Assembly (NCBI GenBank): GCA_028280285.1
Contig: JANQMA010000017.1
Location: 993 to 64,992 of the forward strand
DNA: 64,000 nt
Direction of reading: 5' to 3'
Source: Candidatus Omnitrophota bacterium
GTDB lineage: Bacteria; Omnitrophota; Gorgyraeia; Zapsychrales; Zapsychraceae
Made by a program: the position numbers and the translations under genes. Shown here one piece after another: positions 27,799 through 62,913 of this stretch; the first letter of the stretch is position 1, and the number at the start of each line of letters is the position of its first letter. Under the pieces are notes generated by a model. It saw only the letters and a program-made list of their open reading frames with translations. It did not search any database and had not been told where the DNA came from.

Positions 27799-27801
27799 TT
27801 C

Positions 27802-27875
27802 GTACTTGGTACTTAGGACTTCGGACTTGGTGGAAAATATCCTAAGTACTAAGTCCCAAGTCCCAAGTCCTAGGT
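27802..27875. repeat. AAGTCC/GGACTT-family palindromic element, copy 1
   Basis: GTACTTGGTACTTAGGACTTCGGACTTGG ... CCTAAGTACTAAGTCCCAAGTCCCAAGTCCTAGG. Confidence 0.8.
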
Positions 27876-27897
27876 CCAATACAATTAATAATAAGAT

Positions 27898-28272: not shown

Positions 28273-28955
28273 GTTTATCCAGATCCACTAAAAAACCGGT
28301 TCCGGTGCTTTTTGAAAATCAGCATTTTATCGTCTTTAATAAACCCGCCAGGCTTCTTGTCATCCCGTCACCGACCGAGAAAAATAATACATTAGTTAAT
28401 ATTGTGAATCGTCAGTATGCACGTAATGATGGATCGGCCAAGCTTCATCCATGCCACCGGTTGGACAAAGACACATCCGGGGCTATTTTGTTTGCCAAGG
28501 GTAAGGCCAACCAAAAGGTGATGATGGAGGAGTTTAAAGACAGGGAAATTAAAAAAGTCTATGAGGCCTTTGTGCATGGACACCCTAAAAGAAAAAAGGC
28601 ATCGATCAGTAAGCCGATCAAGTCACTGGATCAGAAGAAATTTAAGCAAACGCGGGCCAAGCCGGCTTTAACGAATTATCAAGTGAAGAAAACCTGTGAA
28701 CACTTTAGTGTCGTCGAGGCAGAGCCTGTGACCGGACGTGCTAATCAAATACGTATTCATTTCAAAGATATCGGCCATCCGCTTGTGGGGGAGCGCAAAT
28801 ACGCCATTGCGCGGGATTATCCGGTCAAATTTAAACGTGTTGCGCTTCATGCCAGCCGTTTGGAGTTTATTGATCCACATTCGCAACAGCATGTTATTGT
28901 GGATGCTCCTCTGGCGGAAGATATGAGAGAATTTTTGGAAAAAAGTGGTCCGTGA
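28269..28955 (+). CDS. RluA-family pseudouridine synthase
   Basis: HRLDKDTSGAILFAK (catalytic Asp motif), TGRANQIRIHF and HPLVGERKYA. The last three codons and the TGA stop lie inside a GTGGTC-family palindromic element. Confidence 0.8.
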   Translation: MSLSRSTKKPVPVLFENQHFIVFNKPARLLVIPSPTEKNNTLVNIVNRQYARNDGSAKLHPCHRLDKDTSGAILFAKGKANQKVMMEEFKDREIKKVYEAFVHGHPKRKKASISKPIKSLDQKKFKQTRAKPALTNYQVKKTCEHFSVVEAEPVTGRANQIRIHFKDIGHPLVGERKYAIARDYPVKFKRVALHASRLEFIDPHSQQHVIVDAPLAEDMREFLEKSGP

Positions 28956-29012
28956 TCCGTGGTCAGTGGTCGTTTTTATGTTTGATCACAGAACACAGAC
29001 CACAGATCACTA
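28944..29012. repeat. GTGGTCYGTG-family palindromic element, copy 1 (overlaps rluA stop)
   Basis: Left arm GTGGTCCGTGATCCGTGGTCAGTGGTC, right arm GATCACAGAACACAGACCACAGATCAC. Confidence 0.85.
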
Positions 29013-29949: not shown

Positions 29950-31974
29950 ATGGATCAATTCAAACTAGTTTCAAAATTCAAACCTGTCACCGAACAGCTG
30001 GATGCGGTCGATAAGCTCGTTCAAAACATTAAGGGCGGCACAAAAGATCAGGTTCTCCTCGGGGTAACCGGGAGCGGTAAAACATTCACCCTCGCCAATG
30101 TGATTGAGAAGATCAACCGTCCGACGCTCGTTATAAGCCACAATAAAACCCTTGCCGCTCAACTCTATAGCGAATTTAAAGAATTCTTTCCCCATAATGC
30201 GGTTGAGTATTTCGTGAGTTATTACGACTATTATCAACCGGAAGCCTATGTTCCCCAAACCGATATTTATATCGAGAAGGATGCTTCGATCAATGACCGG
30301 CTGGACCGTCTGCGTCTTGCGTCAACCACATCGCTTATGACCAGACGTGATGTTATTATTGTGGCGAGCGTTTCTTGTATTTACAATCTTGGTTCGCCTG
30401 AAGATTATGCACAGTTTTTACTTTATTTGAATGTTGGTGATGAAATTGAGCGCGATCAGGTGCTGGAGAAGCTGGTCGACATACAGTATGAACGCAGCGA
30501 TATGGATTTTAGGCGCGGTTCTTTCCGCGTGCGTGGGGATGTGGTCGAGGTTTATCCGGCATACCGGCAGGACGGCCTTAGAATTGAATTTTTCGGGGAT
30601 GAGATTGAAAAGATCAAACAAATTCATCCGCTGACAGGTGATGTGATTGCCGAACTTGATAAAATTGCCGTGTATCCGGCGAAACATTTTATCATCGGTC
30701 ATGAGCGCATTGACGCGGCCATGGTTGAAATCGAAACAGAACTGAAAGAACAACTTAAAGTATTAAATAAAAAAGGCAAGCTCGCCGAGGCGCAAAGACT
30801 TGAGTCGCGCACGAAATACGATATGGAAATGATGAAAGAGATGGGCTATTGCAACGGGATTGAAAACTATTCACGTGTCTTATCCGGCCGCCCACCGGGG
30901 TCCAGGCCGTATTCGCTCATTGATTATTTCCCGGACGATTTTGTAACGCTGATTGATGAGTCGCATGTAACCGTTCCACAGGTTAACGGGATGTATAACG
31001 GCGACCGCGCGCGTAAAACAACGCTTGTTGATTATGGTTTCCGTCTGCCGTCGTGTTTGGATAATCGTCCGCTTAAATTTGCTGAATTTGAAAAATTAAT
31101 CAGTCAGACTATTTATGTCTCCGCTACACCCGGGCCTTATGAGCAGAAAAAAGGCAAAGGAAATCTGGTCGAGCAGATTATCCGTCCGACGGGGATTGTT
31201 GATCCGCCGATTGAAGTGCGCAAGACCGAAGGGCAAATCGATGATTTGATGAATGAAATCAAAAAGCGGGCCAAGGCCAATGAGCGTGTGCTGGTTACAA
31301 CGCTGACCAAACGAATGTCGGAAGATTTAACGGAGTATCTGCAGGATAACAGTATTAAGGTAAAATATTTGCATTCCGACATTGAAACCATTGATCGTAC
31401 GAAAATCCTGCAGGATCTGCGGCTTAAAAAATATGACTGCCTTGTCGGGGTTAACCTTTTGCGTGAAGGTTTGGATTTGCCGGAAGTCTCTCTTGTGGCG
31501 ATACTCGATGCGGATAAGCAAGGCTTTTTACGTTCGCAGACTTCACTCATTCAAACAGCCGGGCGCGCTGCGCGTAATGTCAACGGCATTGTTATTATGT
31601 ATGCCGATACGATAAGCCAAGCGATGAAAGATACGATGGCCGAGTGTGAGCGCCGGCGTAAGATCCAACTCGCGTTTAATAAAAAGCATAATGTCACACC
31701 GCAGACGATTAAGCGGGCTATCCGCCAGGGAATTGAAGTGTTGGCCGACGAGGTCGAAGAAGTGGTGCTTGATGCGGCCGGCCAGGACAAAGAAGAGTTT
31801 GCTTTTGCCAATTCAATTGCCGCACTTGAACGGGAAATGGAAAATGCGGCGCGCAATTTACAATTTGAGAAAGCCGCCAAGTTTCGTGATAGAATAAAAG
31901 CATTACAGGAAAGCCTCGGGGAGCCGTTGGCCGAGCCGAGCGTGCGTAGGCGAAGAAAGAAATCTAAAAAGTGA
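29950..31974 (+). CDS. uvrB: excinuclease ABC subunit B
   Basis: Walker [10 protein letters not shown], helicase motifs, the UvrB beta-hairpin region and a C-terminal UVR domain ([27 protein letters not shown]). The stop codon lies inside a palindromic element. Confidence 0.95.
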
Positions 31975-32030
31975 TCAGTGGTCTGTGATCACAAATATTA
32001 ACTGACCACAGAACACAGACAACAGACCAC
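31969..32030. repeat. GTGGTCYGTG-family palindromic element, copy 2 (contains the uvrB stop codon)
   Basis: GTGATCAGTGGTCTGTGATCAC ... GACCACAGAACACAGACAACAGACCAC. Confidence 0.85.
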
Positions 32031-32907: not shown

Positions 32908-32975
32908 TTGGTACTTAGTACATGGGCCCTGGGACTTGGGTTTACCAAGTCCTAAGTCCCAAGTTCTAAGTCCAG
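32908..32975. repeat. AAGTCC/GGACTT-family palindromic element, copy 2 (in the groESL 5' UTR between CIRCE and the Shine-Dalgarno)
   Basis: GGTACTTAGTACATGGGCCCTGGGACTTGGG ... CCAAGTCCTAAGTCCCAAGTTCTAAGTCC. Confidence 0.8.
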
Positions 32976-35011: not shown

Positions 35012-35083
35012 TGGTGGTCTGTGTTCTGTGGTCTGTGTTCAGTTAAATGAACGACTGATCACAGATCACGGACCACAGATCAC
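35012..35083. repeat. GTGGTCYGTG-family palindromic element, copy 3 (intergenic, after groEL)
   Basis: GGTGGTCTGTGTTCTGTGGTCTGTGTTC ... GATCACAGATCACGGACCACAGATCAC. Confidence 0.85.
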
Positions 35084-35242
35084 ATAATATCACTAAAACC
35101 AGTCATTCTCGTGGCTGGTTTTATTTATATATTGACTTTTCAAAAAAATACGGTATCATATATGCTTATAATTTAGACTTAGGTTTTCTCTATATTAGAG
35201 ACTTAAGTTTATATATATCAATGGTTTAGAAAGGATTCACCC

Positions 35243-38519: not shown

Positions 38520-41500
38520 GTGAAACGCACTCACTGGACATATAGATGCATTGCACTTGTCGTAAGCTGTTTATTTACAGTTACTTCGATAAATCCCGTC
38601 TATGCCCAGATGCAACCTACCCAGGCCATTGCTCCTAAACCATTGCCTTTAAATGTGTTAAGTCAACCCTATGAACCGATTTTGATCAAAGGCCTTAAGG
38701 TCAATCAGACCAATCCATTTGAGATGGAGTTTATTGTAAGTGATCCGTGGTCCGTGGTCCGTGGTCAGCGGAATACTGATCACAGACCACAGAGCACAGA
38801 CCACCTAGAGCAGGAGTCTACTCAATTAATTAAATACTTCCTTGCCGCTTTAACCACTCCCGAGCAAGACATGTGGGTCAACCTATCCCCGTATGAGAAG
38901 AATCGGATTATTCCAGAGTCATTTGGTCGGACAGAAATGGGACGGGAGCTGCTTGTACAGGACTATCTTTTAAAACAGGTTACAGCATCATTGCTTCATC
39001 CGGATGGGGAGTATGGACAAGAGTTTTGGAGTAAAATAGCAACCCAAACATCGGAGGACATACCATTAGAATTATTCAATAAGGTCTGGATCATGCCGGA
39101 TAAAGCGGTGGTGTATGAGAATGAAGGGATAGCGTATGTGGTAGAGGCGAGTCTTAAGGTTATGTTGGAGGAAGATTACCTTGCGCAGCAAAAGAGTGGT
39201 CCGTGGTCCGTGGTCAGTGATCTGTCAAAAAATACGACCACAGATCACAGAACACAGACCACACAAATCATTCGTGAAACAATCATTCCCGCTATCGAAA
39301 CCGAGGTCAACAATAGCAAGAATTTCGCCAAGCTCCGCCAGATCTATCACAGCCTCATCCTGGCGACATGGTACAAGAAAAAGATGCAAAACGCGATTTT
39401 AACCCAAGTCTATGCCGATCAAAACAAGACTAATGGTGTAAGCCACAATGATCCTAAAGCAGCTGAAAAAATCTGGCAAGAGTACACCAAGACATTTAAA
39501 GAAGGGGCGTATAACTTTATCAAAGAAGAATACGATCCACAGACTCAGCAAATCGTTCCACGGAAGTATTTCAGCGGGGGGATGGCGATGGAGGTTGTGC
39601 TATCAGAACCGGCAGCGCTTACATCACAACAACAAGAGACTATTCCCGACAACGCCTACCTCGTCCGTGTTGCGTTAAACGAATTGACTCCCGATTCTGA
39701 TAGCGCGGCAATGGTTAAGAAAAAATCAGCGGATGATTTTAAATATAATGTCAATATAAGGACCCCCAAATTACAGGATCAACTCCCAGGGTTAGCAAAA
39801 AAACGGGAACAGACAAAGAAGGCACTTATTGGTTATTTCAATCAAATGATACATCATAATCCATTTGAAATGCCGAAATTTAATGTGAATTATAATCGAA
39901 TCATGCATTTACTACGACATATGATAGGGTTTGATGCTATTGGATTCTCATTTTCTGAACAAGATCCTGATGGCTTTATTACAAAAGCTGCGGTTTCTAA
40001 TGTGCTTATCCCTTTAATTGAACAAACAAAATTTCCTTTGTCTGTTGACCGTATGACACAATTTGTATTAGAGGCAAATTTAGATAATGAACGTCAGTTT
40101 AAATATATCGAAGCGCTTAATGATTTTAAAGTTTTTGCTACTTCTTATTCGGAAGGCGCCGAAAACGCAGCGTTGACAGCGCCCGCTCCCGACCCCGCCG
40201 TGATGACGCAAGAGGAACAACTTTCTATCGATCCGGCATCACTTGCTGAGTTAGCATTGGCTATGACTGAAAAGGATGTTCAAGATATCGCTGAAGTAGC
40301 CCGGTTGATAAAACAGAACTCCGATCATTATGCAAAAATATTGCTCAAAGAATATAACCAAACCAAAGACCAATTCAAAAATCGAGAAGAAATAATAAAG
40401 ATTGACGCTGTTGTAGACGATCCGACAATCCAGAAATTAATAAAAATATTTAAACGGATAAGCCGTAAAACAGGGAAAGAAAACAGCCGTAATGTTTCGC
40501 GTAGTTTAATGGGCTTAATTTATTTCTATAAATATATAACATATTTATATAAGCCCAAATATCAAATGGATGTTATAAGTGACATATCATTAAATATACT
40601 TTTGGGGGATATAATTAGGGAAAGCAATACTAAGAGAGGCCTTAAATCTTCCACCATTCCTATAGAAGATCAAATGCGCAATGTTGTTTTAGATTTTGCC
40701 GATAATTTAGGCAATTTGGTTGGGCGGATCAATGCACTGCCAAAAGCGAACACTACAGAGTTTGCACAAGTGTGGGCCTCTATGATTAATGAGGATAATT
40801 TTACCAGGGCAGATCTTTATCAGAACATAAAATCTTTTGGCAGGGTTTTAGAAGCGCGACGCGGGCGTTTTTTAACATTCTTAAGAGCAGACCGCAGCTT
40901 AACACGTGAAGCAAAAGAAACGTTGATTCTAAAAGCGCTTGCAATGAATCAAGAAGGGAAGGATCCAAAGGCAATTGTGGATGAATTAATGCAAGTGTGG
41001 ATTCCTCAATTTAAACGCAGTGAAGCAATATATGGTGTGCTAAGGATGACCGGCTGGGAATCAGAAATTCATAGATACCAATGGGGTGAATATGCAAAAT
41101 ATGCCCCTTTTCCTGTTCGGGAAATCACCAATGTCTACCGGGATATTGTTGGTATGCATTTAGATCCTCATATTTCCTCACATGATTGGACAGAGTATGT
41201 CGGACGTCCGGCACTCTCCTGGTTTGTTCAGTGGAAAAAAATAGAAGCCATGACTCAATTGAGTTTTATACCACTTGAAGATCCGGATGGTAATTTGATT
41301 TACAATGATTTGCAGGTTAATGGGGTTATCCCCGAGGAAATTTTAAAACTTGTTTATAAGGACGTTCATCCGCTGGCAACTATTTCCGGTACAGAAGATA
41401 AAAAGTGGAGGACGGAACGATGGCAGTTATATAAGGGCCATTACTATCCACCACTCGAAAGTGAATGGATAGAGTTTGTCAAAATGCTGCTCTATTCCTC

Positions 41501-44500
41501 CCAAAATCGCTTGAAGAGTAGACGAGGCAATCATGATGCTGTCATTGTAAAGCACGCTTATAATTTAAAAATAGGCAACCTTCGTTATGATCTGTATCAG
41601 TCAAATAATTTATGGAGGCTGCAGTATCCGTATGGAGATATATCTGATCTTCCATTTTCTGATTATGGGAAGAGCCTGCAGACAGCACAAGTTCTACATG
41701 GCTTGATGATGCATCATCTTGTTGTTAAGTATGGTCTCATTAATAATGCTCCGGCTGAACATCATGATTTTATTATGCGTTTATCTGATATGTGGCAAAG
41801 TTTTGAAAACGATCTTGAGGAAACTCTTCAAAACCGGGGTTATACGCGAGAGAATTTGCGTTTGCATGTTTTGTCGAATGCTCATGGAGTCGATGGTATT
41901 AAATATCTTAGGGAATTGTTTATTAATCGTATATTTCGATTACGTGAAAAGAAAGTTACTGAGGAAATACGTAATCTTGTCGAGTCGACCCTCACTGAAG
42001 TGGATGATGTTTTAACGGAAGAATATGAAAAGAGAAAGGACGTCGAAAACGCGGCATTGATTAAACAGCGTCCAGCGTTGAGCGTAGAGCGTATAGCGGA
42101 TAGTGATATTAATCTAACCGCTAAACGCCATCCGCTAGACACTAAAACCGACCCCGCCGCGATGGTGAAACAAAATTTGGCGAACATTGACCAAAATATT
42201 TATGAGGATATTGTAGACCATCTTCTATGGCATAAGCCAAATGTGATTGTAAAAGATCATTATCGCGATATTTTAGCGCGGTTTATTCACGATAATAGAA
42301 AAAAAGAAAAAAAATTCTGGTCTCGTGAGGGTAAAAAAATATTTTCCAAAGAGCAGGTGCGCACTTTATTGGAATCTTGGCCCGGAAATAATATGCAATA
42401 TAAAGCACATGTTAATTCTTCGGGGAATAGAGAAATATCAATCATATTGCATCAAAAAATTAAACCGACTTTTACTATTGATCTTACATTTAAGAGAGAC
42501 GGACAGGTTAAGCTAGGTAAACAGTTTAAATCGCATCAAAACTATATAGTGGATAGATTAGAAGAGAGTTATGGGATCGACCGTATTGAAGCCCGTGTGA
42601 TTGCACAAATAGCACGTCGTTATTGGTTTAAAAGTGTTTTTATCCCTATGCTGCGCGAGATGGAAATTGACCATCTGCATGGTAAAAAAATAGATGAAAA
42701 ATCAACATTTTTCGCAGAGATGGGTTTTAAAGACGGTGTTTTATCTGTCGACCCCGCCGCGATGGCGGAGCAGGAGCAAGAGTCCAAAAAAGATCAATCC
42801 GCTCCGGTGTCTTTCAATGTTGGCGATGAATTGAGGAGGATTTATCATAATACAACACGTCCTAAAATTTTCAAAGTAGAAAAATGGCCTGGGCAGGCTA
42901 TACAACTACGAATGGAAGAGGATCCTCTTCCACGAGATAAACCGCCTAATTCTATTACTGATGAGGATTTGACATATCGCATATACGCATCGGTCACACA
43001 TGGGAAATCCGCGTTCTACTATCCTGTAGCGATGCGTTCGGGTATTTTTTACAAAAATGATATTGTTGATTTAACAAAAGGCTGGCAAATTACTTATAAT
43101 TACCCGGCCGTCTATAAGCTTATTCAAAACTACCGAGATAAGAATGGATATGCAAGTTATTTGGAGGCGATTGATCATCTATTAGAAAACGATGAAGAAA
43201 CCCGTAAATATGAGAAACATTTAATTAACCAAATCATTTCTTTGTTTCCGATTTTGCAAATTTTTTATGGGTTTTCATCAGATGAGCAAGTGGATGAGTA
43301 TTTTAACCAGGCCCCTCAACAATTAGAAAATAAAGGTATTGCCTCGGCTTTACTTGAATATTTAGGAAGTTATTTACCGGTTGGAACAAAAGTCAAAATT
43401 ATCGGAGCGAATCGGCCGACCGTAGAAGCTCTTAATAAGGGAACGGTATTTGAAGATACATTGCTCGGGAAAATGTATACGCGTATCGGATTTAAAGTTT
43501 TATCTATTGAACAAAAAGACGGACAAAATCCAATTGTTGTTTTCCAGAAGACAAAAAATGTAAAACCACGCGCTAAGTGGAAAGATGTAACGAAGTTAGG
43601 AGGTCACGTTTTATCCGTAGAGAGCGGTGTCGTTTCTGATTCCGAAGGTGTCGAAAACGCTGCATTGAGCAAAGTTGTCCCTGACTCTGCCGTAATGGTC
43701 GGTTTGAAAACGGATCCAATAGAGTTATCCATGGTGGAAGAAAACTATATTAGACTTTTAATAGAAAATAATTACCAGAAACAAACTTTTCAGGTGATGA
43801 TTAACGATATTAAAGATCCTGATCGAATTCACCAGCTTATGACGGAAGTCTTAAAGCGAAAAGGGTATTATCGACCAGAGATCAATAATTTTAATGATAG
43901 AAGTAGGTTTCCTTTGGAGGTTCCAGGTGATAGAGGGCTTATTTTAACGTCTATGGGTGATGGTAATGAAGATATTTTAAGATTTACGGTTGAAAGTAAT
44001 AATGTGATTATGTGGAAGCGTCCTAAAATTGGTGGTTCAAAATTGGGTGTTGCACCGGTTGCCTATGTTTGGTGGGCAACTCATCCAGAAATTAGAAAAG
44101 AGTTGTCCGGGAAGCCAATGAAGGGGTATAAGGCAGATTATAGGCAGGGGAGGGCTCTTGAAAAAGCATGGATTTTTAAAATTGCCTTACCCGATGGAGC
44201 TAAAGATTGGAACAAATATGATTATTCAGGTTCTTTTCCTGTTTGGCAAAAAGATTTAAAACAAAACGTCGAAAACGCGGCGTTGACAGAGCCTGCTCCC
44301 GATCCCGCCGCGATGGCGAAGCAGGAATTTGAACGGACTGATTCAGCGGTAGTTGCAGATCAGGAAGGACAATATATTATCCCTGGTTTTGATATTATAA
44401 AATATTCGGTTGATTCTTATGATCAAGAAAATCGAGAAGCAAGAGAAAGTCGAGAGGCAAGATATGAATTGAATGATTGGCAAGAAGGTGTTGTATTGGC

Positions 44501-46034
44501 TCAAATTGAAAATATCATTATGCAGGCACAAGAAATTGGCGATATAGATATGGAAAATTATTTAATATATGTTTTGGAACAAGGAGTTAAAAAATTTATT
44601 AAATCTGATACGTCAGAATATATTCAGGCAGTAGGTAAAACAAAAATGGACGGTCGTGAAGTTGTTTCAATAGCCGAGGAATTACTTAATCAATCAAGAT
44701 CTGATGATGACGTGAAATTATTGGTTAAATTGGTTTTAATCCATGAATTTAATCATATTCTTGATCACAAATTAAATCGTTTATCATTAAACATTATGAA
44801 ATTAGTTGACATAAATCTTATAGAACGTTCGGCCTTGATTCGTTCAGCTGCATATTTTGATGGATTTATAAAGAAAGAAGGCGATGGATTAAATGATTTT
44901 ATTGTCATGTACCGATTTGATGGCGATAAAATTATGGCTTATACTTCAACAAATTCGGAAATATCTTCTGTGAAATCAGATTATCAAAAGCCACCTGTTA
45001 TCATGCCTGGGGAAAATCGGTATACATATTATGATCAATTAGCTAGAAAAGGAAATATTGTAACGTCTGAAGAAACTGGGTCTATATATTATTATGAGTC
45101 ATATAGAAAAGGGGGTGATGACACTACACTGGAAAAAAATGGTGTCGTTTCTGAAAAAAATGGTGTCGTTTCTGATTCCGAAGGTGTTGAAAACGCTACG
45201 TTGGCAAAGGGCGCTTCCGACAATGCCGCGATGGCGGATAATTCAGATAGTGATGAGGTTTTTATAGAACAAGATAATTATACTTTTAAATATCGACGAC
45301 CAACACAAATAGCAATGGCTTCGGTAACAGTGATGAATCCCAAAGGAGTTCATGGTGGTCCTTCACAATATATAACGGGTTTGGTTAAATCGTATCAAGA
45401 TATTTGGCCACTAACGATTAAAATGAAATTTAAGGGTGAATACATTGATACGAATGATGTGAAAAATATTATGGAATTGAAAATAAAACAAGGTGATGTA
45501 TTGGAAATAGAGATGTTTGGGAGTGAAGAAGGGGCTTTAAAGTTTGTGCAAAGTATGGCCGCAAGGGTAGCTGATTCTGAAACACGTAAAAAGTATGAAG
45601 CGAAAATCACAAGACAGCCATTAAATGAGGATGACGCAGCATTGACTAAAGGTGGTATAGACTTCGACGCCTCCAAAATGGATCTAGAGATTCGGACGGA
45701 ACAAAGCCAGATGCTCGATGCTCGCCCGCCCCGCCGCTTCGCGGCGGAAGCTGCGGGCCGGGGATGCTCGATGCTAGAGGACGAAGAGTTGCGAAAAGAG
45801 TGCCTTACTAACACCTCTAGTGGTATACAGTTTAAGTTTACTCCCCAACAGATTGAGGGGATGCGCCAGAATATTACGGGCTTTAATCCGGTGATTATTA
45901 ATATCCAGCCGATTGTGAACTTGCCGTTGTTTTTGGGGTTGAATGATATTGAGGACGCGCCGGATGAGACAGAAACGGTAGAGGCAGATGGTCAGGATCT
46001 TTTAGCAAGAATGGAGGAGTATTCATATAACTAG
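38520..46034 (+). CDS. giant secreted protein (2504 aa) of unknown function, with repeated ENAAL..PAPDPAAM modules and an HEFNH motif
   Basis: Uninterrupted 7.5-kb ORF in an AT-rich genome. Signal peptide MKRTHWTYRCIALVVSCLFTVTSINPVYA-Q. HExxH at about nt 44745 (LVLIHEFNHILDH). Contains three in-frame palindromic-element insertions and 6-7 GC-rich repeat modules. Confidence 0.8.
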   Translation: MKRTHWTYRCIALVVSCLFTVTSINPVYAQMQPTQAIAPKPLPLNVLSQPYEPILIKGLKVNQTNPFEMEFIVSDPWSVVRGQRNTDHRPQSTDHLEQESTQLIKYFLAALTTPEQDMWVNLSPYEKNRIIPESFGRTEMGRELLVQDYLLKQVTASLLHPDGEYGQEFWSKIATQTSEDIPLELFNKVWIMPDKAVVYENEGIAYVVEASLKVMLEEDYLAQQKSGPWSVVSDLSKNTTTDHRTQTTQIIRETIIPAIETEVNNSKNFAKLRQIYHSLILATWYKKKMQNAILTQVYADQNKTNGVSHNDPKAAEKIWQEYTKTFKEGAYNFIKEEYDPQTQQIVPRKYFSGGMAMEVVLSEPAALTSQQQETIPDNAYLVRVALNELTPDSDSAAMVKKKSADDFKYNVNIRTPKLQDQLPGLAKKREQTKKALIGYFNQMIHHNPFEMPKFNVNYNRIMHLLRHMIGFDAIGFSFSEQDPDGFITKAAVSNVLIPLIEQTKFPLSVDRMTQFVLEANLDNERQFKYIEALNDFKVFATSYSEGAENAALTAPAPDPAVMTQEEQLSIDPASLAELALAMTEKDVQDIAEVARLIKQNSDHYAKILLKEYNQTKDQFKNREEIIKIDAVVDDPTIQKLIKIFKRISRKTGKENSRNVSRSLMGLIYFYKYITYLYKPKYQMDVISDISLNILLGDIIRESNTKRGLKSSTIPIEDQMRNVVLDFADNLGNLVGRINALPKANTTEFAQVWASMINEDNFTRADLYQNIKSFGRVLEARRGRFLTFLRADRSLTREAKETLILKALAMNQEGKDPKAIVDELMQVWIPQFKRSEAIYGVLRMTGWESEIHRYQWGEYAKYAPFPVREITNVYRDIVGMHLDPHISSHDWTEYVGRPALSWFVQWKKIEAMTQLSFIPLEDPDGNLIYNDLQVNGVIPEEILKLVYKDVHPLATISGTEDKKWRTERWQLYKGHYYPPLESEWIEFVKMLLYSSQNRLKSRRGNHDAVIVKHAYNLKIGNLRYDLYQSNNLWRLQYPYGDISDLPFSDYGKSLQTAQVLHGLMMHHLVVKYGLINNAPAEHHDFIMRLSDMWQSFENDLEETLQNRGYTRENLRLHVLSNAHGVDGIKYLRELFINRIFRLREKKVTEEIRNLVESTLTEVDDVLTEEYEKRKDVENAALIKQRPALSVERIADSDINLTAKRHPLDTKTDPAAMVKQNLANIDQNIYEDIVDHLLWHKPNVIVKDHYRDILARFIHDNRKKEKKFWSREGKKIFSKEQVRTLLESWPGNNMQYKAHVNSSGNREISIILHQKIKPTFTIDLTFKRDGQVKLGKQFKSHQNYIVDRLEESYGIDRIEARVIAQIARRYWFKSVFIPMLREMEIDHLHGKKIDEKSTFFAEMGFKDGVLSVDPAAMAEQEQESKKDQSAPVSFNVGDELRRIYHNTTRPKIFKVEKWPGQAIQLRMEEDPLPRDKPPNSITDEDLTYRIYASVTHGKSAFYYPVAMRSGIFYKNDIVDLTKGWQITYNYPAVYKLIQNYRDKNGYASYLEAIDHLLENDEETRKYEKHLINQIISLFPILQIFYGFSSDEQVDEYFNQAPQQLENKGIASALLEYLGSYLPVGTKVKIIGANRPTVEALNKGTVFEDTLLGKMYTRIGFKVLSIEQKDGQNPIVVFQKTKNVKPRAKWKDVTKLGGHVLSVESGVVSDSEGVENAALSKVVPDSAVMVGLKTDPIELSMVEENYIRLLIENNYQKQTFQVMINDIKDPDRIHQLMTEVLKRKGYYRPEINNFNDRSRFPLEVPGDRGLILTSMGDGNEDILRFTVESNNVIMWKRPKIGGSKLGVAPVAYVWWATHPEIRKELSGKPMKGYKADYRQGRALEKAWIFKIALPDGAKDWNKYDYSGSFPVWQKDLKQNVENAALTEPAPDPAAMAKQEFERTDSAVVADQEGQYIIPGFDIIKYSVDSYDQENREARESREARYELNDWQEGVVLAQIENIIMQAQEIGDIDMENYLIYVLEQGVKKFIKSDTSEYIQAVGKTKMDGREVVSIAEELLNQSRSDDDVKLLVKLVLIHEFNHILDHKLNRLSLNIMKLVDINLIERSALIRSAAYFDGFIKKEGDGLNDFIVMYRFDGDKIMAYTSTNSEISSVKSDYQKPPVIMPGENRYTYYDQLARKGNIVTSEETGSIYYYESYRKGGDDTTLEKNGVVSEKNGVVSDSEGVENATLAKGASDNAAMADNSDSDEVFIEQDNYTFKYRRPTQIAMASVTVMNPKGVHGGPSQYITGLVKSYQDIWPLTIKMKFKGEYIDTNDVKNIMELKIKQGDVLEIEMFGSEEGALKFVQSMAARVADSETRKKYEAKITRQPLNEDDAALTKGGIDFDASKMDLEIRTEQSQMLDARPPRRFAAEAAGRGCSMLEDEELRKECLTNTSSGIQFKFTPQQIEGMRQNITGFNPVIINIQPIVNLPLFLGLNDIEDAPDETETVEADGQDLLARMEEYSYN
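38741..38804. repeat. GTGGTCYGTG-family element, copy 4, in frame inside the giant ORF
   Basis: GATCCGTGGTCCGTGGTCCGTGGTCAGCGGAATACTGATCACAGACCACAGAGCACAGACCAC, translated as DPWSVVRGQRNTDHRPQSTDH. Confidence 0.85.
39196..39263. repeat. GTGGTCYGTG-family element, copy 5, in frame inside the giant ORF
   Basis: GTGGTCCGTGGTCCGTGGTCAGTGATCTG...GACCACAGATCACAGAACACAGACCAC, translated as SGPWSVVSDLSKNTTTDHRTQTTQ. Confidence 0.85.
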
Positions 46035-46066
46035 TGATAGAGTGATAAAGTGGTAGTAGTGATAGG
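46032..46066. repeat. GTGATAGAGTGATAAAGTGGTAG-family repeat copy directly after the giant-ORF stop
   Basis: CTAGTGATAGAGTGATAAAGTGGTAGTAGTGATAGG shares the tandem unit with 54638-54678. Confidence 0.65.
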
Positions 46067-51059: not shown

Positions 51060-51087
51060 GAGAAATAAAAGTGGTTGTAATAAATTA

Positions 51088-51172
51088 GGTTAAAGGTTTT
51101 AGGTATTAGGTTTTAGTAAAACAAATGGCTAACACCCAACGCCTGAAACCTAAAACCTTCTGTCATTTAACC
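51088..51172. repeat. GGTTAAAGGTTTTAGGT-family palindromic element, copy 1 (after dnaE)
   Basis: GGTTAAAGGTTTTAGGTATTAGGTTTTAG ... CTGAAACCTAAAACCTTC ... TTAACC. Confidence 0.75.
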
Positions 51173-51681: not shown

Positions 51682-52956
51682 ATGGGTAAAAGTTTTAGTT
51701 TACCAAGAGGAACCGCCGATATTCTTCCATCTGATATTACCGCTTGGCGGTATTTGGAGTCTAGCGCGCGTCAATTTTTCTCTGTTTACAATTACAAGGA
51801 AATCAGGACACCCAACTTTGAGGAAACCGAGCTGTTTGCCCGCTCCATGGGACAGAGTAGCGATGTTGTGCAAAAGCAGATTCTGTCGCTTCGGTCCCAA
51901 AAGGCTGATGCCGCTGAAGACAGCGGGTTGGCGCTCAGACCCGAAGGCACGGCGTCTGTGGTCCGTTCCTATATCCAGAATAATGTGGACCGCAAGGAGT
52001 CTTTAAGTAAATATTTCTATATCGGGCCGATGTTTCGCGGTGAACGTCCGCAAAAGGGGCGCTTGCGCCAGTTTCATCAAATGGGTGTTGAGGCGATCGG
52101 GCCTGATTCAGCCTCTCCTTATCTGGATGCCGAGGTTATTGCCCTGGCGGTTAATCTGCTTAAAGGTTTGGGTCTTAAAGGGTTTACACTTAAGATCAAT
52201 ACATTAGGCTCAAAAGAAGATAAAGAGGCCTTTTCTAAGAAATTAAGAGAAGATTTAAAGCCGCATTTGGCCAAATTGTCCGATGAGTCCAAGCAGCGTT
52301 ATGAACGTAATGTTTTTCGTATCTTAGACAGCAAATCTAAAGAAGATAAAGCAATTGTAAAGAACTTAAAGCTTGATCATTCGTATCTTTCCAAAGAAAG
52401 TTTGGATTATTACACCAAGGTCAAAGAAAATTTAACGGCGCTGGGTGTTGCGTTTGAAGAATCGGTTGATTTGGTACGCGGACTTGATTATTACACGCAT
52501 ACAGTGTTTGAAATTTGTGATTCGTCACTTGGTGCGCAGGATGCGCTTGGAGCCGGCGGGCGTTACGGGACGCTGGTTGCGCAGCTTGGCGGCAGCGATA
52601 ATGTGGAAGCGATCGGTTTTGCGCTTGGCATGGAGCGAATACTGCTTGCTTTGGGCAAAGTGGATATTAAGCAAAGTGCACTAGATACCTTTGTGATCGC
52701 CATGGATGATGCAGCGGTGTCCTATGCCTTTCATGTATTAAATAAATTGCGTGCAAGCAATATCAGTGCCGATATGCATTTTAAAGGCGGTTCGGCGAAA
52801 AGCCAGATGCGAATCGCTAATAAGTCCGGCGCACGTTTTACAGTGATTATCGGTGCACAAGAAGTTCAAAATAAAACCGTAACCTTGAAGGATATGGATT
52901 CGGGGGAGCAGGAAGAACTCGCGCTACAGGAAGCGATAAGTAAAATAAAAAGTTAA
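51682..52956 (+). CDS. hisS: histidine--tRNA ligase
   Basis: Class II motifs (RGTADILP, FRGERPQKGRLRQFHQ, GGGRYG) and a C-terminal anticodon-binding domain. Confidence 0.92.
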   Translation: MGKSFSLPRGTADILPSDITAWRYLESSARQFFSVYNYKEIRTPNFEETELFARSMGQSSDVVQKQILSLRSQKADAAEDSGLALRPEGTASVVRSYIQNNVDRKESLSKYFYIGPMFRGERPQKGRLRQFHQMGVEAIGPDSASPYLDAEVIALAVNLLKGLGLKGFTLKINTLGSKEDKEAFSKKLREDLKPHLAKLSDESKQRYERNVFRILDSKSKEDKAIVKNLKLDHSYLSKESLDYYTKVKENLTALGVAFEESVDLVRGLDYYTHTVFEICDSSLGAQDALGAGGRYGTLVAQLGGSDNVEAIGFALGMERILLALGKVDIKQSALDTFVIAMDDAAVSYAFHVLNKLRASNISADMHFKGGSAKSQMRIANKSGARFTVIIGAQEVQNKTVTLKDMDSGEQEELALQEAISKIKS

Positions 52957-53228
52957 AAGTAAAAATTAAAAAAGAAAATTTAAAATTTAAAGAAACTGAG
53001 AAATAAAAAATAAATTAAAAATTGTATTTGGTAATTGGTATTTAGTAATTGGAGGTTAATGATTTATAAATTAGTTTCATAACGAAAACATGATTTCGAA
53101 AAATTCTATTTCAATGCTTTTATTAACTAATTACCAATTACTAACGACCAAATACAATTTTAATTTTTAAATTTATTTAACTTTTAAATTTTCTTTTTTA
53201 ATTTTTATTTCTCATTTTTAAATTATTT
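52957..53228. repeat. Long (about 270 bp) AT-rich imperfect palindrome (MITE-like) filling the hisS-aspS intergenic region
   Basis: Outer arms AAAATTAAAAAAGAAAATTTAAAA / TTTTAAATTTTCTTTTTTAATTTT. Inner arms AAAATTGTATTTGGTAATTGGTATTTAGTAATTGG / CCAATTACTAACGACCAAATACAATTTT. Confidence 0.75.
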
Positions 53229-53246
53229 AGAGAGGATTCAAGTAAG

Positions 53247-54635: not shown

Positions 54636-54637
54636 AA

Positions 54638-54843
54638 AGTGATAAAGTGATAAAGTGATAAAGTGGTAGAGTGATAAAAAGGTTAAAGGTTTTAGGTTAG
54701 AGGTGAAAATAAATTTTTATTTTAACCCTTCACCTTCAACCTTTAACCAACAGTATTATTTTGATCTTTATTGTTTTTAAATTTTTTACTAGCACTTTAT
54801 CACCAATTGTTACTTTACTTATGAGTATCACTCTATCACTAAT
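54638..54843. repeat. Composite nested palindrome after aspS: GTGATAAAGTG tandem-repeat arms flanking a GGTTAAAGGTTTTAGGT-family element
   Basis: 54638-54678 (GTGATAAAGTGATAAAGTGATAAAGTGGTAGAGTGATAAAA), then 54680-54748 (GGTTAAAGGTTTTAGGTTAGAGGTG ... CACCTTCAACCTTTAACC), then 54792-54843 (CACTTTATCACC ... ATCACTCTATCACT, inverted). Confidence 0.75.
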
Positions 54844-54873
54844 CATTGTTTATTATTCAATAAGGAGCTCACT

Positions 54874-55455: not shown

Positions 55456-55456
55456 G

Positions 55457-55513: not shown

Positions 55514-55523
55514 ATACATAAGC

Positions 55524-56471: not shown

Positions 56472-57900
56472 GACCACCAAATCACATGAGCAAATAACAA
56501 GATACGTGACAGCCACCTTTTTAGGAATTTTGTTTGTTGCTTTTTGTTATTTGATGAACTACTCATTAATACTTCCGTTGTTGGTCATACTGATGGGCGC
56601 TCATTTGCGTCTTTCGCGTAATATCAATTCGCGTATGCTGCTTAATCTTGGCTTATTATTCATGGTCATTGTGGCACTCGCGTATTTCATACAATATAAA
56701 TTTCCCAACACAACATTTGTGATCCCTGTTGCCAGTATTGGTATGTTAACGATGCTTTTATTTAATAGCTATCGATTAACATTGATTATGTCATTTGTGA
56801 CGAGTGTGTTTGTCGGCAATATGCTCGATGGTGGTTTTGGCATGATGATTATGTTTTTTTCTGGCGCTATGGTCGGTGGATATGCCGTTTATGAAGCACG
56901 GACACGAGGGCAGTTATTTACAGCGGGGCTTTTTGCCAGTGCAATACAAACTATTGCTTTAATTTTGATGTACCCTGACTCACAGAAAATTCTAGCCGGG
57001 GAGTTTATGAGTGAATATCTTTATCCGACTGTTGCCAATGGTTTTCTTTCTGCGCTTTTTGTTGTTGCGACACTAAAAATATTTGAGTCAATTTGTGGCG
57101 TTTTGACGAACTTCAGCTTGCTGGAATTATCCGACTTTAATAATCCGCTTCTTAAACGTATGATTATGGAGGCGCCGGGCACCTATCATCACAGTTTGGT
57201 TGTCAGTAACCTAGCCGAGGCTGCGTCGAATGAGATCGGGGCGAATGGACTTTTGACGCGTGTAGGTGCGTACTATCATGATATCGGCAAAATGTCGAAG
57301 CCTGAATACTTCACGGAAAATCAATTGATGGGCGGCAATAAACATGATGCGATTGAACCATCGATGAGCCGATTGGTTATTATTAATCATGTGAAAGAAG
57401 GAATTGAACTTGCTAAGAAGCATAAGTTAAATCAGGCTATCATTGATTTTATTCCGCAGCATCACGGGACATCGCTTATTTTCTATTTTCATCAAAAGGC
57501 GATTGAAGGGGCCGGTGATGTGCGTGAAGTTGATGAGGAAAATTACCGTTATCCCGGACCTAAACCGCAGACACGTGAGACCGCGATCACACTTTTGGCG
57601 GATTCGGTGGAAGGGGCCACGCGCGCGCTTGATGAGCATACACCAAGCAGTATTCAAGAGACAGTGCAGAAGGTTATCAATAATAAATTTATCGACGGGC
57701 AGCTGGATGAATGTCCACTGACACTCAAGGAAATTGACCGGATTGCTAAAACATTTACCCGCATCTTAAGCGCGATGTATCACGGACGCGTTAAATATCC
57801 TGAAAAGAAAAAAGAGAATGGACATTCAAATAGAAAATCTTCAGAAAAAGATAATTCTGAAACCAATTCCGATCAAGAACCTGGTCCAAACGGTTCTTAA
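56443..57900 (+). CDS. 7TM receptor with intracellular HD hydrolase (YqfF/PgpH-like)
   Basis: Multiple TM helices followed by the HD domain (HSLVVSNLAE...YYHDIGK...QHHGT). Confidence 0.85.
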   Translation: MRLMNMTTVETTKSHEQITRYVTATFLGILFVAFCYLMNYSLILPLLVILMGAHLRLSRNINSRMLLNLGLLFMVIVALAYFIQYKFPNTTFVIPVASIGMLTMLLFNSYRLTLIMSFVTSVFVGNMLDGGFGMMIMFFSGAMVGGYAVYEARTRGQLFTAGLFASAIQTIALILMYPDSQKILAGEFMSEYLYPTVANGFLSALFVVATLKIFESICGVLTNFSLLELSDFNNPLLKRMIMEAPGTYHHSLVVSNLAEAASNEIGANGLLTRVGAYYHDIGKMSKPEYFTENQLMGGNKHDAIEPSMSRLVIINHVKEGIELAKKHKLNQAIIDFIPQHHGTSLIFYFHQKAIEGAGDVREVDEENYRYPGPKPQTRETAITLLADSVEGATRALDEHTPSSIQETVQKVINNKFIDGQLDECPLTLKEIDRIAKTFTRILSAMYHGRVKYPEKKKENGHSNRKSSEKDNSETNSDQEPGPNGS

Positions 57901-58318
57901 AGGCGAAGGGATAAAAAGCGCTGCGCTTGATCTTGCCTTCGTTACCGCACAAAAGATACGTTCGATTAATAGCAAATATTTAAATCATCATTATGTGACG
58001 GATGTTATTACGTTTGATTACGGTGGTCCGTGGTCTGTGGTCCGTGGTCGGAGTCCTAAAATTAATACACAGAAAACAGACCACAGAAAACAGACCACTT
58101 TAAATGGTGAAATTATTATTTCCACCGATGCGGTCAGGCAGAATGCGCGCAAGTTTAAAACCAGTGAGGCATATGAGCTTGCGCTTTATCTCGTGCATGG
58201 CATTTTGCATTTGTTGGGGTATGATGATAAGACAGTGAAAGATAAGGCGGTCATGCGTGAGGCGGAGGAGAGGGTAATGGGGTATTTGGGTAAAAAAATA
58301 GATAAGGTAAACGCATGA
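57818..58318 (+). CDS. ybeY: rRNA maturation endoribonuclease YbeY carrying an in-frame palindromic-element insertion of about 25 aa
   Basis: Zinc-binding HGILHLLGYDD motif. Insert GGPWSVVRGRSPKINTQKTDHRKQTTLNG lies between VITFDY and EIIISTDAV. Confidence 0.85.
   Translation: MDIQIENLQKKIILKPIPIKNLVQTVLKGEGIKSAALDLAFVTAQKIRSINSKYLNHHYVTDVITFDYGGPWSVVRGRSPKINTQKTDHRKQTTLNGEIIISTDAVRQNARKFKTSEAYELALYLVHGILHLLGYDDKTVKDKAVMREAEERVMGYLGKKIDKVNA
58023..58098. repeat. GTGGTCYGTG-family element, copy 6, in frame inside ybeY
   Basis: GGTGGTCCGTGGTCTGTGGTCCGTGGTCGGAG...CACAGAAAACAGACCACAGAAAACAGACCAC. Confidence 0.85.
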
Positions 58319-59598: not shown

Positions 59599-59606
59599 AA
59601 TTATCA

Positions 59607-62842: not shown

Positions 62843-62913
62843 GGTGGTCTGTGTTCCGTGTTCTGTGTTCTGTATCGTTCCAAGATGACCACTGACCACA
62901 GATCACAGACCAC
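62843..62913. repeat. GTGGTCYGTG-family palindromic element, copy 7 (intergenic, after the CMD gene)
   Basis: GGTGGTCTGTGTTCCGTGTTCTGTGTTCTG ... GACCACTGACCACAGATCACAGACCAC. Confidence 0.85.

What the first reader, a model, noticed from the sequence alone, without database searches (positions are those of the whole stretch)
38741..39263. Two in-frame copies of the same element inside the 2504-aa giant ORF
Copies at 38741-38804 and 39196-39263 read through in the ORF frame as ..SDPWSVVRGQRNTDHRPQSTDHLEQ.. and ..SGPWSVVSDLSKNTTTDHRTQTTQ... All three coding-region copies are translated in the same element frame. This suggests the other frames or orientation are counter-selected, or that the element encodes a tolerated, perhaps functional, flexible peptide.
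Basis: seen in the sequence. Interest (0 to 1): 0.7.

Follow-up and report, generated by a model that had tools for sequence, protein, structure and literature searches.

The report
Hairpin repeats translated inside protein loops
Two copies of a small hairpin-forming DNA repeat, normally found just after genes, sit in frame inside two floppy loops of a very large protein and are read through as harmless linker peptides; this resembles what is known from Rickettsia, but here it occurs in a little-studied phylum (probably Omnitrophota), where the same loops have repeatedly captured such repeats.

Summary
The window holds seven copies of a 60-76 nt imperfect palindrome. Each has 3-4 tandem heptamers (GTGGTCY), a non-conserved loop, then 3-4 complementary heptamers (RAYCACA). 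Two copies lie in frame in the 2504-aa ORF and one in YbeY. Two more supply the stop codons of an RluA-like gene and UvrB.

Both giant-ORF copies occupy variable-length loops of a conserved N-terminal domain with more than 1300 homologues, nearly all from Omnitrophota. The closest homologues lack the peptide. An AlphaFold model places both in low-confidence coil.

About a quarter of homologues carry other palindromic repeats in the same loops. I confirmed this at DNA level in six genes. Two distant homologues carry the same heptamer-hairpin type at the same residue position.

The frame argument is weak. A 7-nt repeat encodes the same cyclic peptide in all three frames, the palindrome reads almost alike in both orientations, and one frame is closed in 6 of 7 copies. 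In-CDS copies do differ from intergenic ones, with C instead of T at the heptamer spacer (p=0.014).

Best reading: a REP/RPE-like repeat tolerated in permissive loops. This is a new variant of a known phenomenon, with moderate interest.

The parts
38740..38804 (+). In-frame copy 1 of the heptamer hairpin (GTGATCC GTGGTCC GTGGTCC GTGGTCA / loop GCGGAATACT / GATCACA GACCACA GAGCACA GACCAC). It encodes SDPWSVVRGQRNTDHRPQSTDH in loop 1 of the N-terminal domain.
   Evidence: (RNA fold -33.2 kcal/mol sense, -44.6 antisense)
39196..39262 (+). In-frame copy 2 of the heptamer hairpin. It encodes SGPWSVVSDLSKNTTTDHRTQTT in loop 2 of the N-terminal domain.
   Evidence: -26.4 sense, -35.2 antisense; arms 87% complementary
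38520..46034 (+). Giant ORF of 2504 aa with a signal-peptide-like N-terminus. It has a conserved Omnitrophota N-terminal domain (about aa 40-355, nt 38520-39584), then a repetitive C-terminal part with an HPr-like domain at aa 2268-2338.
58023..58098 (+). In-frame copy inside YbeY. It encodes GPWSVVRGRSPKINTQKTDHRKQT in the variable loop between the DVITF strand and GEIIIS.
57818..58318 (+). YbeY endoribonuclease gene carrying the third coding copy. The public gene call starts inside the element (93-aa product P0121).
28945..29010 (+). Copy overlapping the end of the RluA-like gene. It supplies the last codons and the stop (AGT GGT CCG TGA) in the same frame as the coding copies. Its right arm ends 20 nt before the next start codon.
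31971..32030 (+). Copy filling the 63-nt gap between UvrB and the type III pantothenate kinase gene. Its first heptamer GTGATCA supplies the UvrB TGA stop, in a different frame from the coding copies. Its last heptamer ends 7 nt before the next ATG.
35014..35083 (+). Intergenic copy 26 nt after the GroEL stop, with T spacers. It has the strongest sense-strand hairpin (-45 kcal/mol).
35094..35123 (+). Separate canonical intrinsic-terminator-like stem-loop with a T run, directly after the copy at 35014. This shows that the heptamer hairpin is not itself the terminator.
62844..62913 (+). Intergenic copy 391 nt after ORF 60470-62452. The overlapping minus-strand ORF 62341-62913 has no Pfam hit. 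The left arm and flank are 91% identical to the copy at 35014.

Best explanation
The two copies belong to a dispersed family of short imperfect palindromes whose arms are tandem heptamers, (GTGGTCY)3-4 and its complement. The family's usual place is the transcribed 3' end of a gene or an intercistronic gap. A few copies have ended up inside coding sequence. They survive there only where the protein tolerates them, in disordered loops of variable length, and only in a reading frame free of stops. There they are translated into a hydrophilic linker rich in Pro, Gly, Ser, Thr, His and Arg.

The element largely replaces the variable core of each loop rather than simply lengthening it. After arrival the coding copies were shaped by selection. 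T to C changes at the heptamer spacer turn Leu and Cys codons into Pro and Arg codons, and at the same time weaken the sense-strand mRNA hairpin.

The host lineage, most likely Omnitrophota, carries a high load of palindromic repeats. The three loops of this N-terminal domain are permissive enough that unrelated repeat families have entered them many times in different genomes.

Shown here: the repeat family, its hairpin potential, its positions, the in-frame translation, the loop locations, the absence from the nearest homologues, parallel cases in homologues at DNA level, and the C/T difference. Inferred: that the copies arrived by insertion or recombination from other copies (no transposase, target duplication or empty site in a close relative was found), that they are neutral or nearly so in the protein, and that intergenic copies act as 3' mRNA stem-loops.
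For: Family and non-chance occurrence.

Hairpin potential: -15 to -45 kcal/mol for all copies.

Position of non-coding copies at or just after stop codons, with two supplying the stop.

Loop location: loop 1 is 32 aa against a canonical 21, and loop 2 is 31 aa against a median of 28 (mostly 25-27) across 120 homologues. Inserts in the family cluster in only three loops. The AF2 model puts the inserts between E69-73/H93-112 and H217-225/H242-265, with pLDDT of 44-51 at their centres.

YbeY: the copy is in the variable loop relative to PDB 7y7o and 1oz9 and relative to 50%-identical homologues with 9-22 aa loops.

Absence from relatives: the nearest homologues (P0001 and others, 49-51% identity) lack the peptide.

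Parallel captures at DNA level: P0004 has the same palindrome in both loops and in a neighbouring gene. P0057 has a palindrome in both loops, P0046 has a GTAG-type REP and P0007 has another repeat. P0023 and P0037 carry a (GTGGTCA)n hairpin at the same residue position although they are not close relatives of the window protein.

Difference between coding and intergenic copies: spacer C in 9/15 against 1/11, p=0.014. The sense hairpin is weaker than the antisense hairpin in all three coding copies.

Precedent: RPEs in Rickettsia, and REPs inside genes, including at the same site in recB of two Xanthomonas species (PMC10969869, PMC3733652).
Against: No mobility signature was found: no target-site duplication, no conserved internal sequence (all seven loops differ), and no transposase identified.

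No close relative with an empty site is available, because the nearest homologues are only about 50% identical.

The element replaces the loop core instead of adding 65 nt, so simple insertion is not demonstrated.

In three homologue loci the loop copy is the only copy of its element within about 20 kb. This hints at more than passive tolerance.

Six of six CDS-overlapping copies (four here, two in homologues) share one entry phase. Permissiveness alone does not predict this, although only two frames are usually open.

The sample is small: 7 copies in 64 kb.
Confidence: 0.6

Rival explanations
1. The hairpins are kept at these positions because they act in cis on the mRNA or DNA. For example, they might pause ribosomes after the signal peptide and between structural units to aid export or folding, attenuate transcription of a 7.5-kb gene, or provide RNase processing sites. 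On this view it is the position that is selected, not merely tolerated.
For: Unrelated palindromic families occupy the same two or three loops in about a quarter of 120 homologues. Often the same element is in both loops of one gene (P0004, P0021, P0057, P0061, P0081). In L124, L245 and L247 the loop copy is the only copy of that element in about 20 kb. The same heptamer-hairpin type lies at the same residue and phase in three non-sister proteins. All hairpins remain strongly foldable.
Against: Most homologues, including the nearest ones, have no hairpin in these loops. A copy also sits in an unrelated housekeeping gene, YbeY, and one in an RsmE-like gene in L121. The coding copies carry C.A mismatches that weaken the sense-strand hairpin, the opposite of what selection for an mRNA hairpin predicts. 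P0026 has only a direct heptamer array with no hairpin at loop 2.
Confidence: 0.15
2. The heptamer tracts act as contingency (phase-variation) switches. Slipped-strand gain or loss of one 7-nt unit shifts the frame and turns the secreted giant protein off or on.
For: The unit length is 7, not a multiple of 3. The tracts lie near the 5' end of a gene for a probably secreted protein. A direct heptamer array fills loop 2 in P0026. Hairpins promote replication slippage (general knowledge).
Against: There are at most three identical consecutive units, which is few for efficient slippage. A copy lies in essential-type YbeY. An independent assembly (the Logan SRR20820735 contig) is 100% identical over the YbeY copy. 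Two tracts in one gene would need coordinated changes.
Confidence: 0.08
3. The hairpins arose in place rather than by insertion. Heptamer arrays would grow by slippage in unconstrained loop DNA, and the complementary arm would be created or homogenised by fold-back templated repair or gene conversion, gradually overwriting the loop.
For: The elements replace the loop core; the net gain is only 4-11 aa rather than about 22. All seven copies have unrelated loop sequences, and only the arm motif is shared. The window holds several other hairpin families built from different heptamers. P0026 shows a one-armed direct array at loop 2. Tandem GTGGTCY arrays without hairpins are widespread (118 of 120 loci).
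Against: The same heptamer motif, with both arms, occurs at seven unrelated places in 64 kb, and related hairpins occur in more than 120 metagenome contigs. That is hard to obtain by independent local growth. Copies 35014 and 62844 share 91% identity including the flank, which points to copying.
Confidence: 0.1

Closest known systems
Rickettsia palindromic elements (RPE; Ogata et al. 2000, 2002, as summarised in PMC10969869 and PMC3733652)
   Same: Dispersed palindromic repeats are found both between genes and in frame inside functional genes. They are translated as extra peptide segments at positions compatible with the fold. Housekeeping genes are among the hosts.
   Different: RPEs are about 100-150 bp with family-specific conserved sequence and occur in Alphaproteobacteria. 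Here the element is 60-76 nt, built of tandem heptamers with a non-conserved centre, in a probable Omnitrophota genome. It replaces loop cores rather than adding a full-length segment.
REP elements inside genes (GTAG/CGTC-tagged REPs; Di Nocera et al. 2013, PMC3733652)
   Same: They lie mostly downstream of coding regions and are probably transcribed. Some lie within genes, and different REPs lie at about the same site in recB of two Xanthomonas species. One homologue here (P0046, L247) carries a GTAG-type REP in loop 2, and the window has a GTAG-type pair at 59599-59682.
   Different: The GTGGTCY element has no GTAG or CGTC head and no heptamer-free stem, and no RAYT transposase was identified.
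Cyanobacterial STRR heptamer repeats and Beggiatoaceae TAACTGA repeats (PMC4679880; STRR unit sequences recalled from memory)
   Same: They are tandem 7-nt units dispersed mainly between genes. Their frame and stop content governs where they can overlap coding sequence. As I recall it, the STRR2 unit TTGGTCA differs by one base from GTGGTCA.
   Different: Those are mostly direct arrays, mainly upstream of genes, and TAACTGA carries stops in the forward orientation. Here the arrays are paired as inverted arms forming a hairpin, lie downstream of genes, and are stop-free.
DNA uptake sequences in coding regions (Haemophilus USS, Neisseria DUS; recalled from memory, not checked here)
   Same: Short dispersed motifs often occur as inverted pairs after genes. 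When they lie in genes, they occupy poorly conserved regions and frames that encode tolerated peptides.
   Different: There is no evidence of competence or an uptake function here, and the motif architecture differs (tandem heptamers).

Membership tests
Rickettsia palindromic elements (RPE) | Palindromic repeat inserted in frame in functional ORFs and translated | tested here: met
   Three copies are read through in conserved genes.
Rickettsia palindromic elements (RPE) | Insertion at surface or loop positions compatible with the fold | tested here: met
   The positions are variable loops in alignments and low-pLDDT coil in the AF2 model.
Rickettsia palindromic elements (RPE) | Element of about 100-150 bp belonging to sequence families RPE-1 to RPE-10 of Rickettsia | tested here: not met
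   The elements are 60-76 nt and heptamer-built. The host is probably Omnitrophota. No sequence comparison with RPE consensus sequences was run.
REP / BIME (GTAG- or CGTC-tagged, RAYT-mobilised) | Palindrome of 20-40 nt with a GTAG or CGTC tetranucleotide at one end | tested here: not met
   The ends are GTGGTC / GACCAC with A/T-rich flanks, and no GTAG or CGTC head is present.
REP / BIME (GTAG- or CGTC-tagged, RAYT-mobilised) | Located predominantly downstream of coding regions | tested here: met
   All 4 copies outside gene interiors lie at or after stop codons: 28945 and 31971 supply the stop, 35014 lies 26 nt after one, and 62844 lies 391 nt after one.
REP / BIME (GTAG- or CGTC-tagged, RAYT-mobilised) | Cognate RAYT (Y1 transposase) gene in the genome | not tested
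   Only 64 kb was available, and the Pfam scans covered 15 ORFs. None of those was a transposase.
MITE | Terminal inverted repeats flanked by a target-site duplication | tested here: not met
   The arms are inverted, but no direct duplication flanks any of the 7 copies.
MITE | Conserved internal sequence shared by copies and derived from a parent IS | tested here: not met
   The central loops of all 7 copies are unrelated. No parent IS was seen.
STRR-type heptamer simple-sequence repeats | Tandem 7-nt units dispersed in the genome | tested here: met
   TRF gives period 7 and 3.4-4.6 copies for every arm.
STRR-type heptamer simple-sequence repeats | Direct arrays in filamentous cyanobacteria | tested here: not met
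   The arrays are paired as inverted arms. The host genes are closest to Omnitrophota.
Contingency locus (simple-sequence-repeat phase variation) | Repeat-number polymorphism that shifts the reading frame | tested here: inconclusive
   One independent assembly is identical over the YbeY copy. No read-level data are available, and the tracts have at most 3 identical units.
Intrinsic (Rho-independent) terminator | G+C-rich stem-loop followed directly by a T run | tested here: not met
   On the sense strand no heptamer hairpin is called as a terminator; the only call touching one is a minus-strand match over the left arm of copy 31971. Copy 35014 is followed by a separate canonical terminator at 35094-35123.

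The most novel reading that the evidence does not exclude
The disordered loops of the Omnitrophota N-terminal domain may be preferred or selected positions for nucleic-acid hairpins, not merely permissive ones. Unrelated palindromic repeat families, including the same heptamer-hairpin type in three non-sister proteins at the same residue and codon phase, converge on identical positions. This would imply either a structure- or sequence-directed targeting mechanism for small palindromes, or a function of the mRNA hairpin, for example pacing translation of exported multi-domain proteins. Either would make palindromic repeats a regular source of loop sequence in this phylum.
Probability: 0.15. Interest if true: 0.75.

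Novelty: new variant of a known kind. Interest (0 to 1): 0.45.

Why it matters
In-frame 'protein-coding palindromes' are usually treated as a curiosity of Rickettsia. Here they occur in a different, uncultured phylum, with an element of different architecture (paired heptamer arrays). Different repeat families hit the same loops of one very large protein family in many genomes. That offers a natural experiment on how selfish or structural DNA repeats create and renew protein loop sequence.

It also has a practical side. Gene callers mis-start genes at these elements: the public call for this YbeY begins inside the repeat. Repeat-derived peptides can also be mistaken for conserved motifs.

Tried and rejected
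1. Source genome and more copies. It did not find the source genome.

2. Metagenome scan with a hairpin pattern. It also hit the limit. The median GC of the loci is 58%, and none belongs to the source. Only 2 hairpins lay in long ORFs, and both ORFs look spurious, being Arg/Ala-rich antisense ORFs.

3. Exact look-ups of window proteins to extend the contig. YbeY with the full start, ORF 60470-62452, ORF 4485-7046 and DnaE were all not on record. Only the truncated YbeY call P0121 led to a 6.6-kb Logan contig identical to the window. The listing of cluster members gave no accession.

4. Rfam: no family matches the hairpins.

5. Fold search of the N-terminal domain against the PDB: no significant match.

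6. A 30-aa query of the repeat peptide against 1.84 billion representatives. It returned only the giant protein itself and two apparently spurious short ORFs, judged by eye from their low-complexity sequences.

7. Terminator hypothesis rejected: no T run follows the hairpins, and a separate terminator follows copy 35014.

8. 'Conserved protein motif' hypothesis rejected: homologues lack the peptide, and intergenic copies exist.

9. 'Purging of stops' hypothesis rejected: the unused frames of coding copies are no more open than those of intergenic copies (3 of 6 against 4 of 12 on the + strand).

10. Orthologous single insertion at loop 2 considered unlikely. The window protein, P0023 and P0037 are not nearest relatives, and the nearest relatives of P0023 and P0037 lack the element.
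Full report
**Observation**

At 38740-38804 and 39196-39262 there are two imperfect palindromes. Each has a left arm of 3-4 tandem heptamers GTGGTCY, with G, A or T at the fourth position, then a 10-12 nt centre, then a right arm of 3-4 heptamers RAYCACA.

ORF 38520-46034 (2504 aa) reads through both as SDPWSVVRGQRNTDHRPQSTDH and SGPWSVVSDLSKNTTTDHRTQTT.

The motif GTGGTCCGTGGTC with up to 2 mismatches occurs 33 times in the window against 0.29 expected. The hits resolve into seven elements, at 28945, 31971, 35014, 38740, 39196, 58023 and 62844. All seven fold as hairpins of -15 to -45 kcal/mol.

The third coding copy lies in YbeY (57818-58318; PF02130, E=4.5e-28). In all three coding copies the first heptamer G is at codon position 2.

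**What the host gene is**

The first 355 residues of the giant ORF form a conserved domain with more than 1300 homologues, nearly all from Candidatus Omnitrophota MAGs. The best hit is 49% identical with E=1e-116.

The N-terminus looks like a Sec signal peptide (my reading of MKRTHWTYRCIALVVSCLFTVTSINPVYAQ; no predictor was run). The domain has no Pfam match and no fold match in the PDB.

The rest of the window is housekeeping, with all genes on the + strand. It includes an RluA-like gene, UvrB, CoaX, GroEL, IMPDH, GuaA, DnaE, HisS, PhoH, YbeY, RecO and Dtd.

A 6.6-kb public contig (Logan, SRR20820735) is 100% identical to window 53031-59637. The 2504-aa protein is also present in public predictions (P0241).

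**Where the copies sit in the proteins**

Across 120 homologues, loop 1 (between the FxFxxD strand and the LIKYFLA helix) is canonically 21 aa. Loop 2 (between EEDYLA and IxRExxIP) is about 25-27 aa. The window protein has 32 and 31 aa.

The repeat peptide replaces the variable core of each loop and leaves only the conserved flanks. The net gain is therefore 11 aa in loop 1 and about 4-6 aa in loop 2, not the roughly 22 aa that the element encodes.

The nearest homologues lack the peptide.

An AlphaFold2 model built on 35 sequences (mean pLDDT 73) puts both inserts in coil between secondary-structure elements. Block pLDDT falls to 51 and 44 there.

In YbeY the copy lies in the loop between DVITF and GEIIIS. 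That loop is 9-22 aa and unrelated in sequence in the closest homologues and in solved structures.

**Where the other copies sit**

- Copy 28945 supplies the last three codons and the TGA of the RluA-like gene (..KSGP*), in the same phase as the coding copies. It ends 20 nt before the next start codon.
- Copy 31971 fills the 63-nt UvrB-CoaX gap. Its first heptamer GTGATCA gives the UvrB stop, and its last heptamer ends 7 nt before the ATG.
- Copy 35014 lies 26 nt after the GroEL stop and is followed by a separate canonical terminator at 35094-35123. The heptamer hairpins are therefore not the terminators.
- Copy 62844 is intergenic.

No hairpin matches an Rfam family. The usual niche is thus the transcribed 3' end of genes, as for REP elements (PMC3733652).

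**Frame and orientation**

The cores GTGGTCY and RACCACA contain no stop in any of the six frames. Stops come only from GTGATC variants (TGA), from the TGA at the junction between the loop and the right arm, and from the centres.

Because 3 x 7 = 21, all three frames of a heptamer array encode the same cyclic peptide, (VVRGPWS)n or (DHRPQTT)n. 'Frame' therefore only describes the phase at which the array is entered.

Because the element is a near-palindrome, its reverse complement encodes almost the same peptide, so orientation is hardly a variable.

Open frames are as follows:

| Copies | Open frames |
|---|---|
| Four non-interior copies | 7 of 24 |
| Three coding copies | 10 of 18 |
| Unused + frames of coding copies | 3 of 6 |
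| + frames of non-interior copies | 4 of 12 |

Frame +2 is closed in 6 of 7 copies. With two usable frames, three of three in one frame has p of roughly 0.1-0.3.

Counting copy 28945 and the two homologue copies described below, six of six CDS-overlapping copies share the phase. This is suggestive but not independent of the same constraints.

**A real difference between coding and intergenic copies**

In the left arm the seventh (spacer) base is C in 9 of 15 heptamers of the four CDS-overlapping copies. It is C in only 1 of 11 in the intergenic ones, which mostly have T. Fisher's test gives p=0.014. The right-arm spacer is A nearly everywhere.

T to C turns CTG (Leu) into CCG (Pro) and TGT (Cys) into CGT (Arg). 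It also creates C.A mismatches on the sense strand. In all three coding copies the sense RNA hairpin is weaker than the antisense one: -33 against -45, -26 against -35, and -30 against -36 kcal/mol.

This is what selection on a translated, exposed linker would produce, and it argues that the genes are functional. Selection against a strong mRNA hairpin would produce the same pattern.

**The same loops in other genomes**

About a quarter of the 120 homologues have lengthened loops. These contain recurrent peptides, most of which I recognise from memory as translations of palindromic repeats; six genes were confirmed at DNA level below. Examples are VIARSEATKQS, VIPAKAGIH / VIPAQAGIQ, LSSPNGLIGDL, VETQNFASL, SLPLAGRAREG and GLIHQTQDKGMINHAPT.

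The same peptide is often present in both loops of one protein. Inserts of 6 or more residues occur in only three loops of the domain.

DNA-level checks:

- P0004 (L121) carries TCATCTGTCATTCCCGCGAAAGCGGGAATCCA in both loops. A related copy lies inside a neighbouring gene with a PF04452 (RNA methyltransferase) hit.
- P0057 (L246) carries a CCCTCCCCC..GGGGAGGG hairpin in both loops.
- P0046 (L247) carries a GTAG-type REP in loop 2.
- P0007 (L245) carries another repeat in loop 1.
- P0023 (L122) and P0037 (L124) carry a (GTGGTCA)n...(ACTGACC)n hairpin in loop 2, at the same residue position and phase as window copy 2.

P0023 and P0037 rank 112th and 120th of 120 in identity to the window protein, and their nearest relatives lack the element. 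Acquisition was therefore most likely parallel.

P0026 (L249), a closer relative, has a direct array AGACCAA AGACCAT AGACCAG AGACCAA in loop 2 with no inverted arm.

**Distribution of the element type**

Tandem GTGGTCY arrays are widespread across phyla, but only 2 of 120 such loci form hairpins.

A hairpin-specific pattern still found more than 120 metagenome contigs, mostly high-GC. Only two of those hairpins lay in long ORFs, and both ORFs look spurious.

Coding copies are thus a feature of the Omnitrophota-like genomes rather than of the element type in general.

**Interpretation**

The best-supported reading is a REP/RPE-like situation. A dispersed hairpin repeat lives at transcribed 3' ends of genes. 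A few copies have been fixed in frame in disordered loops, where they are translated as tolerated linkers.

This matches the Rickettsia precedent and reports of REPs inside genes. The element, however, fails the defining features of RPE (size, sequence families, host), of GTAG/CGTC REPs (no tag) and of MITEs (no target duplication, no conserved interior). The heptamer construction recalls STRR and TAACTGA repeats, but those are direct arrays.

What remains unexplained:

- how the copies spread;
- why the centres of all copies are unrelated;
- why the element overwrites the loop core;
- why the loop copy is the only copy within about 20 kb in three homologue loci.

These points keep three rivals alive: a cis-acting role of the coding hairpins, heptamer slippage as a switch, and growth in place.

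I found no mention of palindromes or hairpins inside genes in two Omnitrophota giant-gene preprints, and a full-text search for Omnitrophota with 'palindromic' and 'repeat' returned only four papers, none of which appears from its title or abstract to concern it.

**Verdict**

The 'tolerated peptide' interpretation is supported. The 'frame or orientation counter-selection' interpretation is largely a consequence of heptamer arithmetic and palindromy.

This is a new variant of a known kind, of moderate interest. The more interesting lead is the repeated, phylum-wide capture of palindromic repeats by the same loops.

Noticed in passing
window 27799-27877 and 32913-32973; 51085-51160 and 54681-54748; 55458-55513: Several other hairpin families are built from different tandem heptamers (ACTTAGG/CCAAGTC type, GGTTAAA/TTAGGTT type, GTTGCTC/CTAGCAA type). 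They lie outside the larger ORFs, and the copies at 51085, 54681 and 55458 begin within about 50 nt of a stop codon. The genome seems to build gene-end hairpins from 7-nt units in general.
   Followed up: partly
window 46026-46065 and 54631-54678: Direct 8-nt repeats (AGTGATAR) start at or right after the stop codons of the giant ORF and of the ORF ending at 54635.
   Followed up: no
window 52943-53224: A very long AT-rich inverted repeat (74-nt arms, 80% complementary, 134 nt apart), itself made of 6-7-nt tandem units, follows the HisS gene.
   Followed up: no
window 59599-59682: A GTAG-headed REP-like pair (GTAGGGGCGGCTCGTGAGCCGCCC.. / ..GCGCCCCCTAC) follows ORF 59062-59598. It has the same GTAG-headed architecture as the element found in loop 2 of homologue P0046 (L247 10685-10741).
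   Followed up: partly
window 57818-58318; P0121; L248 5007-5288: The public gene call for this YbeY is a 93-aa product that starts at a GTG inside the repeat (MVRGRSPKINTQK..). It loses the conserved N-terminal 73 residues. This is an annotation artefact caused by the element and by an 83-nt overlap with the upstream gene.
   Followed up: yes
window 58170-58205 (YbeY residues about 118-129): The YbeY metal-binding motif reads HGILHLLGYDD, with Asp where solved YbeY 7y7o has the third His (HGFLHLLGYDH). Several of the closest Omnitrophota-like homologues share this (P0122, P0132).
   Followed up: no
window 38520-39584 and homologues P0001-P0120: The N-terminal domain is a very large family restricted to Omnitrophota, with more than 1300 hits. 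It has no Pfam model and no PDB fold match. It is fused to many unrelated C-terminal domains (glycosyltransferase, kinase, methyltransferase, aldo/keto reductase, HAD and others).
   Followed up: partly
L121 6232-6290, 6706-6770 and about 3717; L246 3733-3765 and 4201-4236; L247 10685-10741; L245 10247-10279: Other Omnitrophota homologues carry unrelated palindromic repeats in frame in the same loops. In L121 a copy also lies in a neighbouring gene with a PF04452 (RNA methyltransferase) hit. A third loop (after window residue about 308) carries VIPAKAG- and VIASGAKQ-type peptides in five homologues.
   Followed up: partly
L249 about 3533-3575 (P0026 loop 2): Loop 2 of this homologue is encoded by a direct heptamer array (AGACCAA AGACCAT AGACCAG AGACCAA AGACATC). 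It resembles the right arm of the window element but has no inverted partner.
   Followed up: partly
L125-L244 (metagenome contigs), L043, L086: Hairpins built of (GTGGTCN)n arms are common in high-GC, apparently soil-derived contigs and occur in an acidobacterial and a planctomycete MAG. Apart from two that fall in apparently spurious ORFs, all lie outside long ORFs. The element type is much more widespread than the source lineage.
   Followed up: partly
window 40134-45245: The C-terminal part of the giant ORF contains diverged internal repeats of about 60-75 nt (for example 40134, 43626 and 45162) and a perfect 21-nt duplication at 45132-45175. An HPr-like domain lies at aa 2268-2338.
   Followed up: no
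L245 (1.29-Mb Omnitrophota contig, range 1142701-1164563): Many housekeeping genes are called in two or more pieces, for example the Phe-tRNA synthetase subunits and a flavoprotein. This may reflect frameshift errors of a long-read assembly or interruptions by repeats.
   Followed up: no
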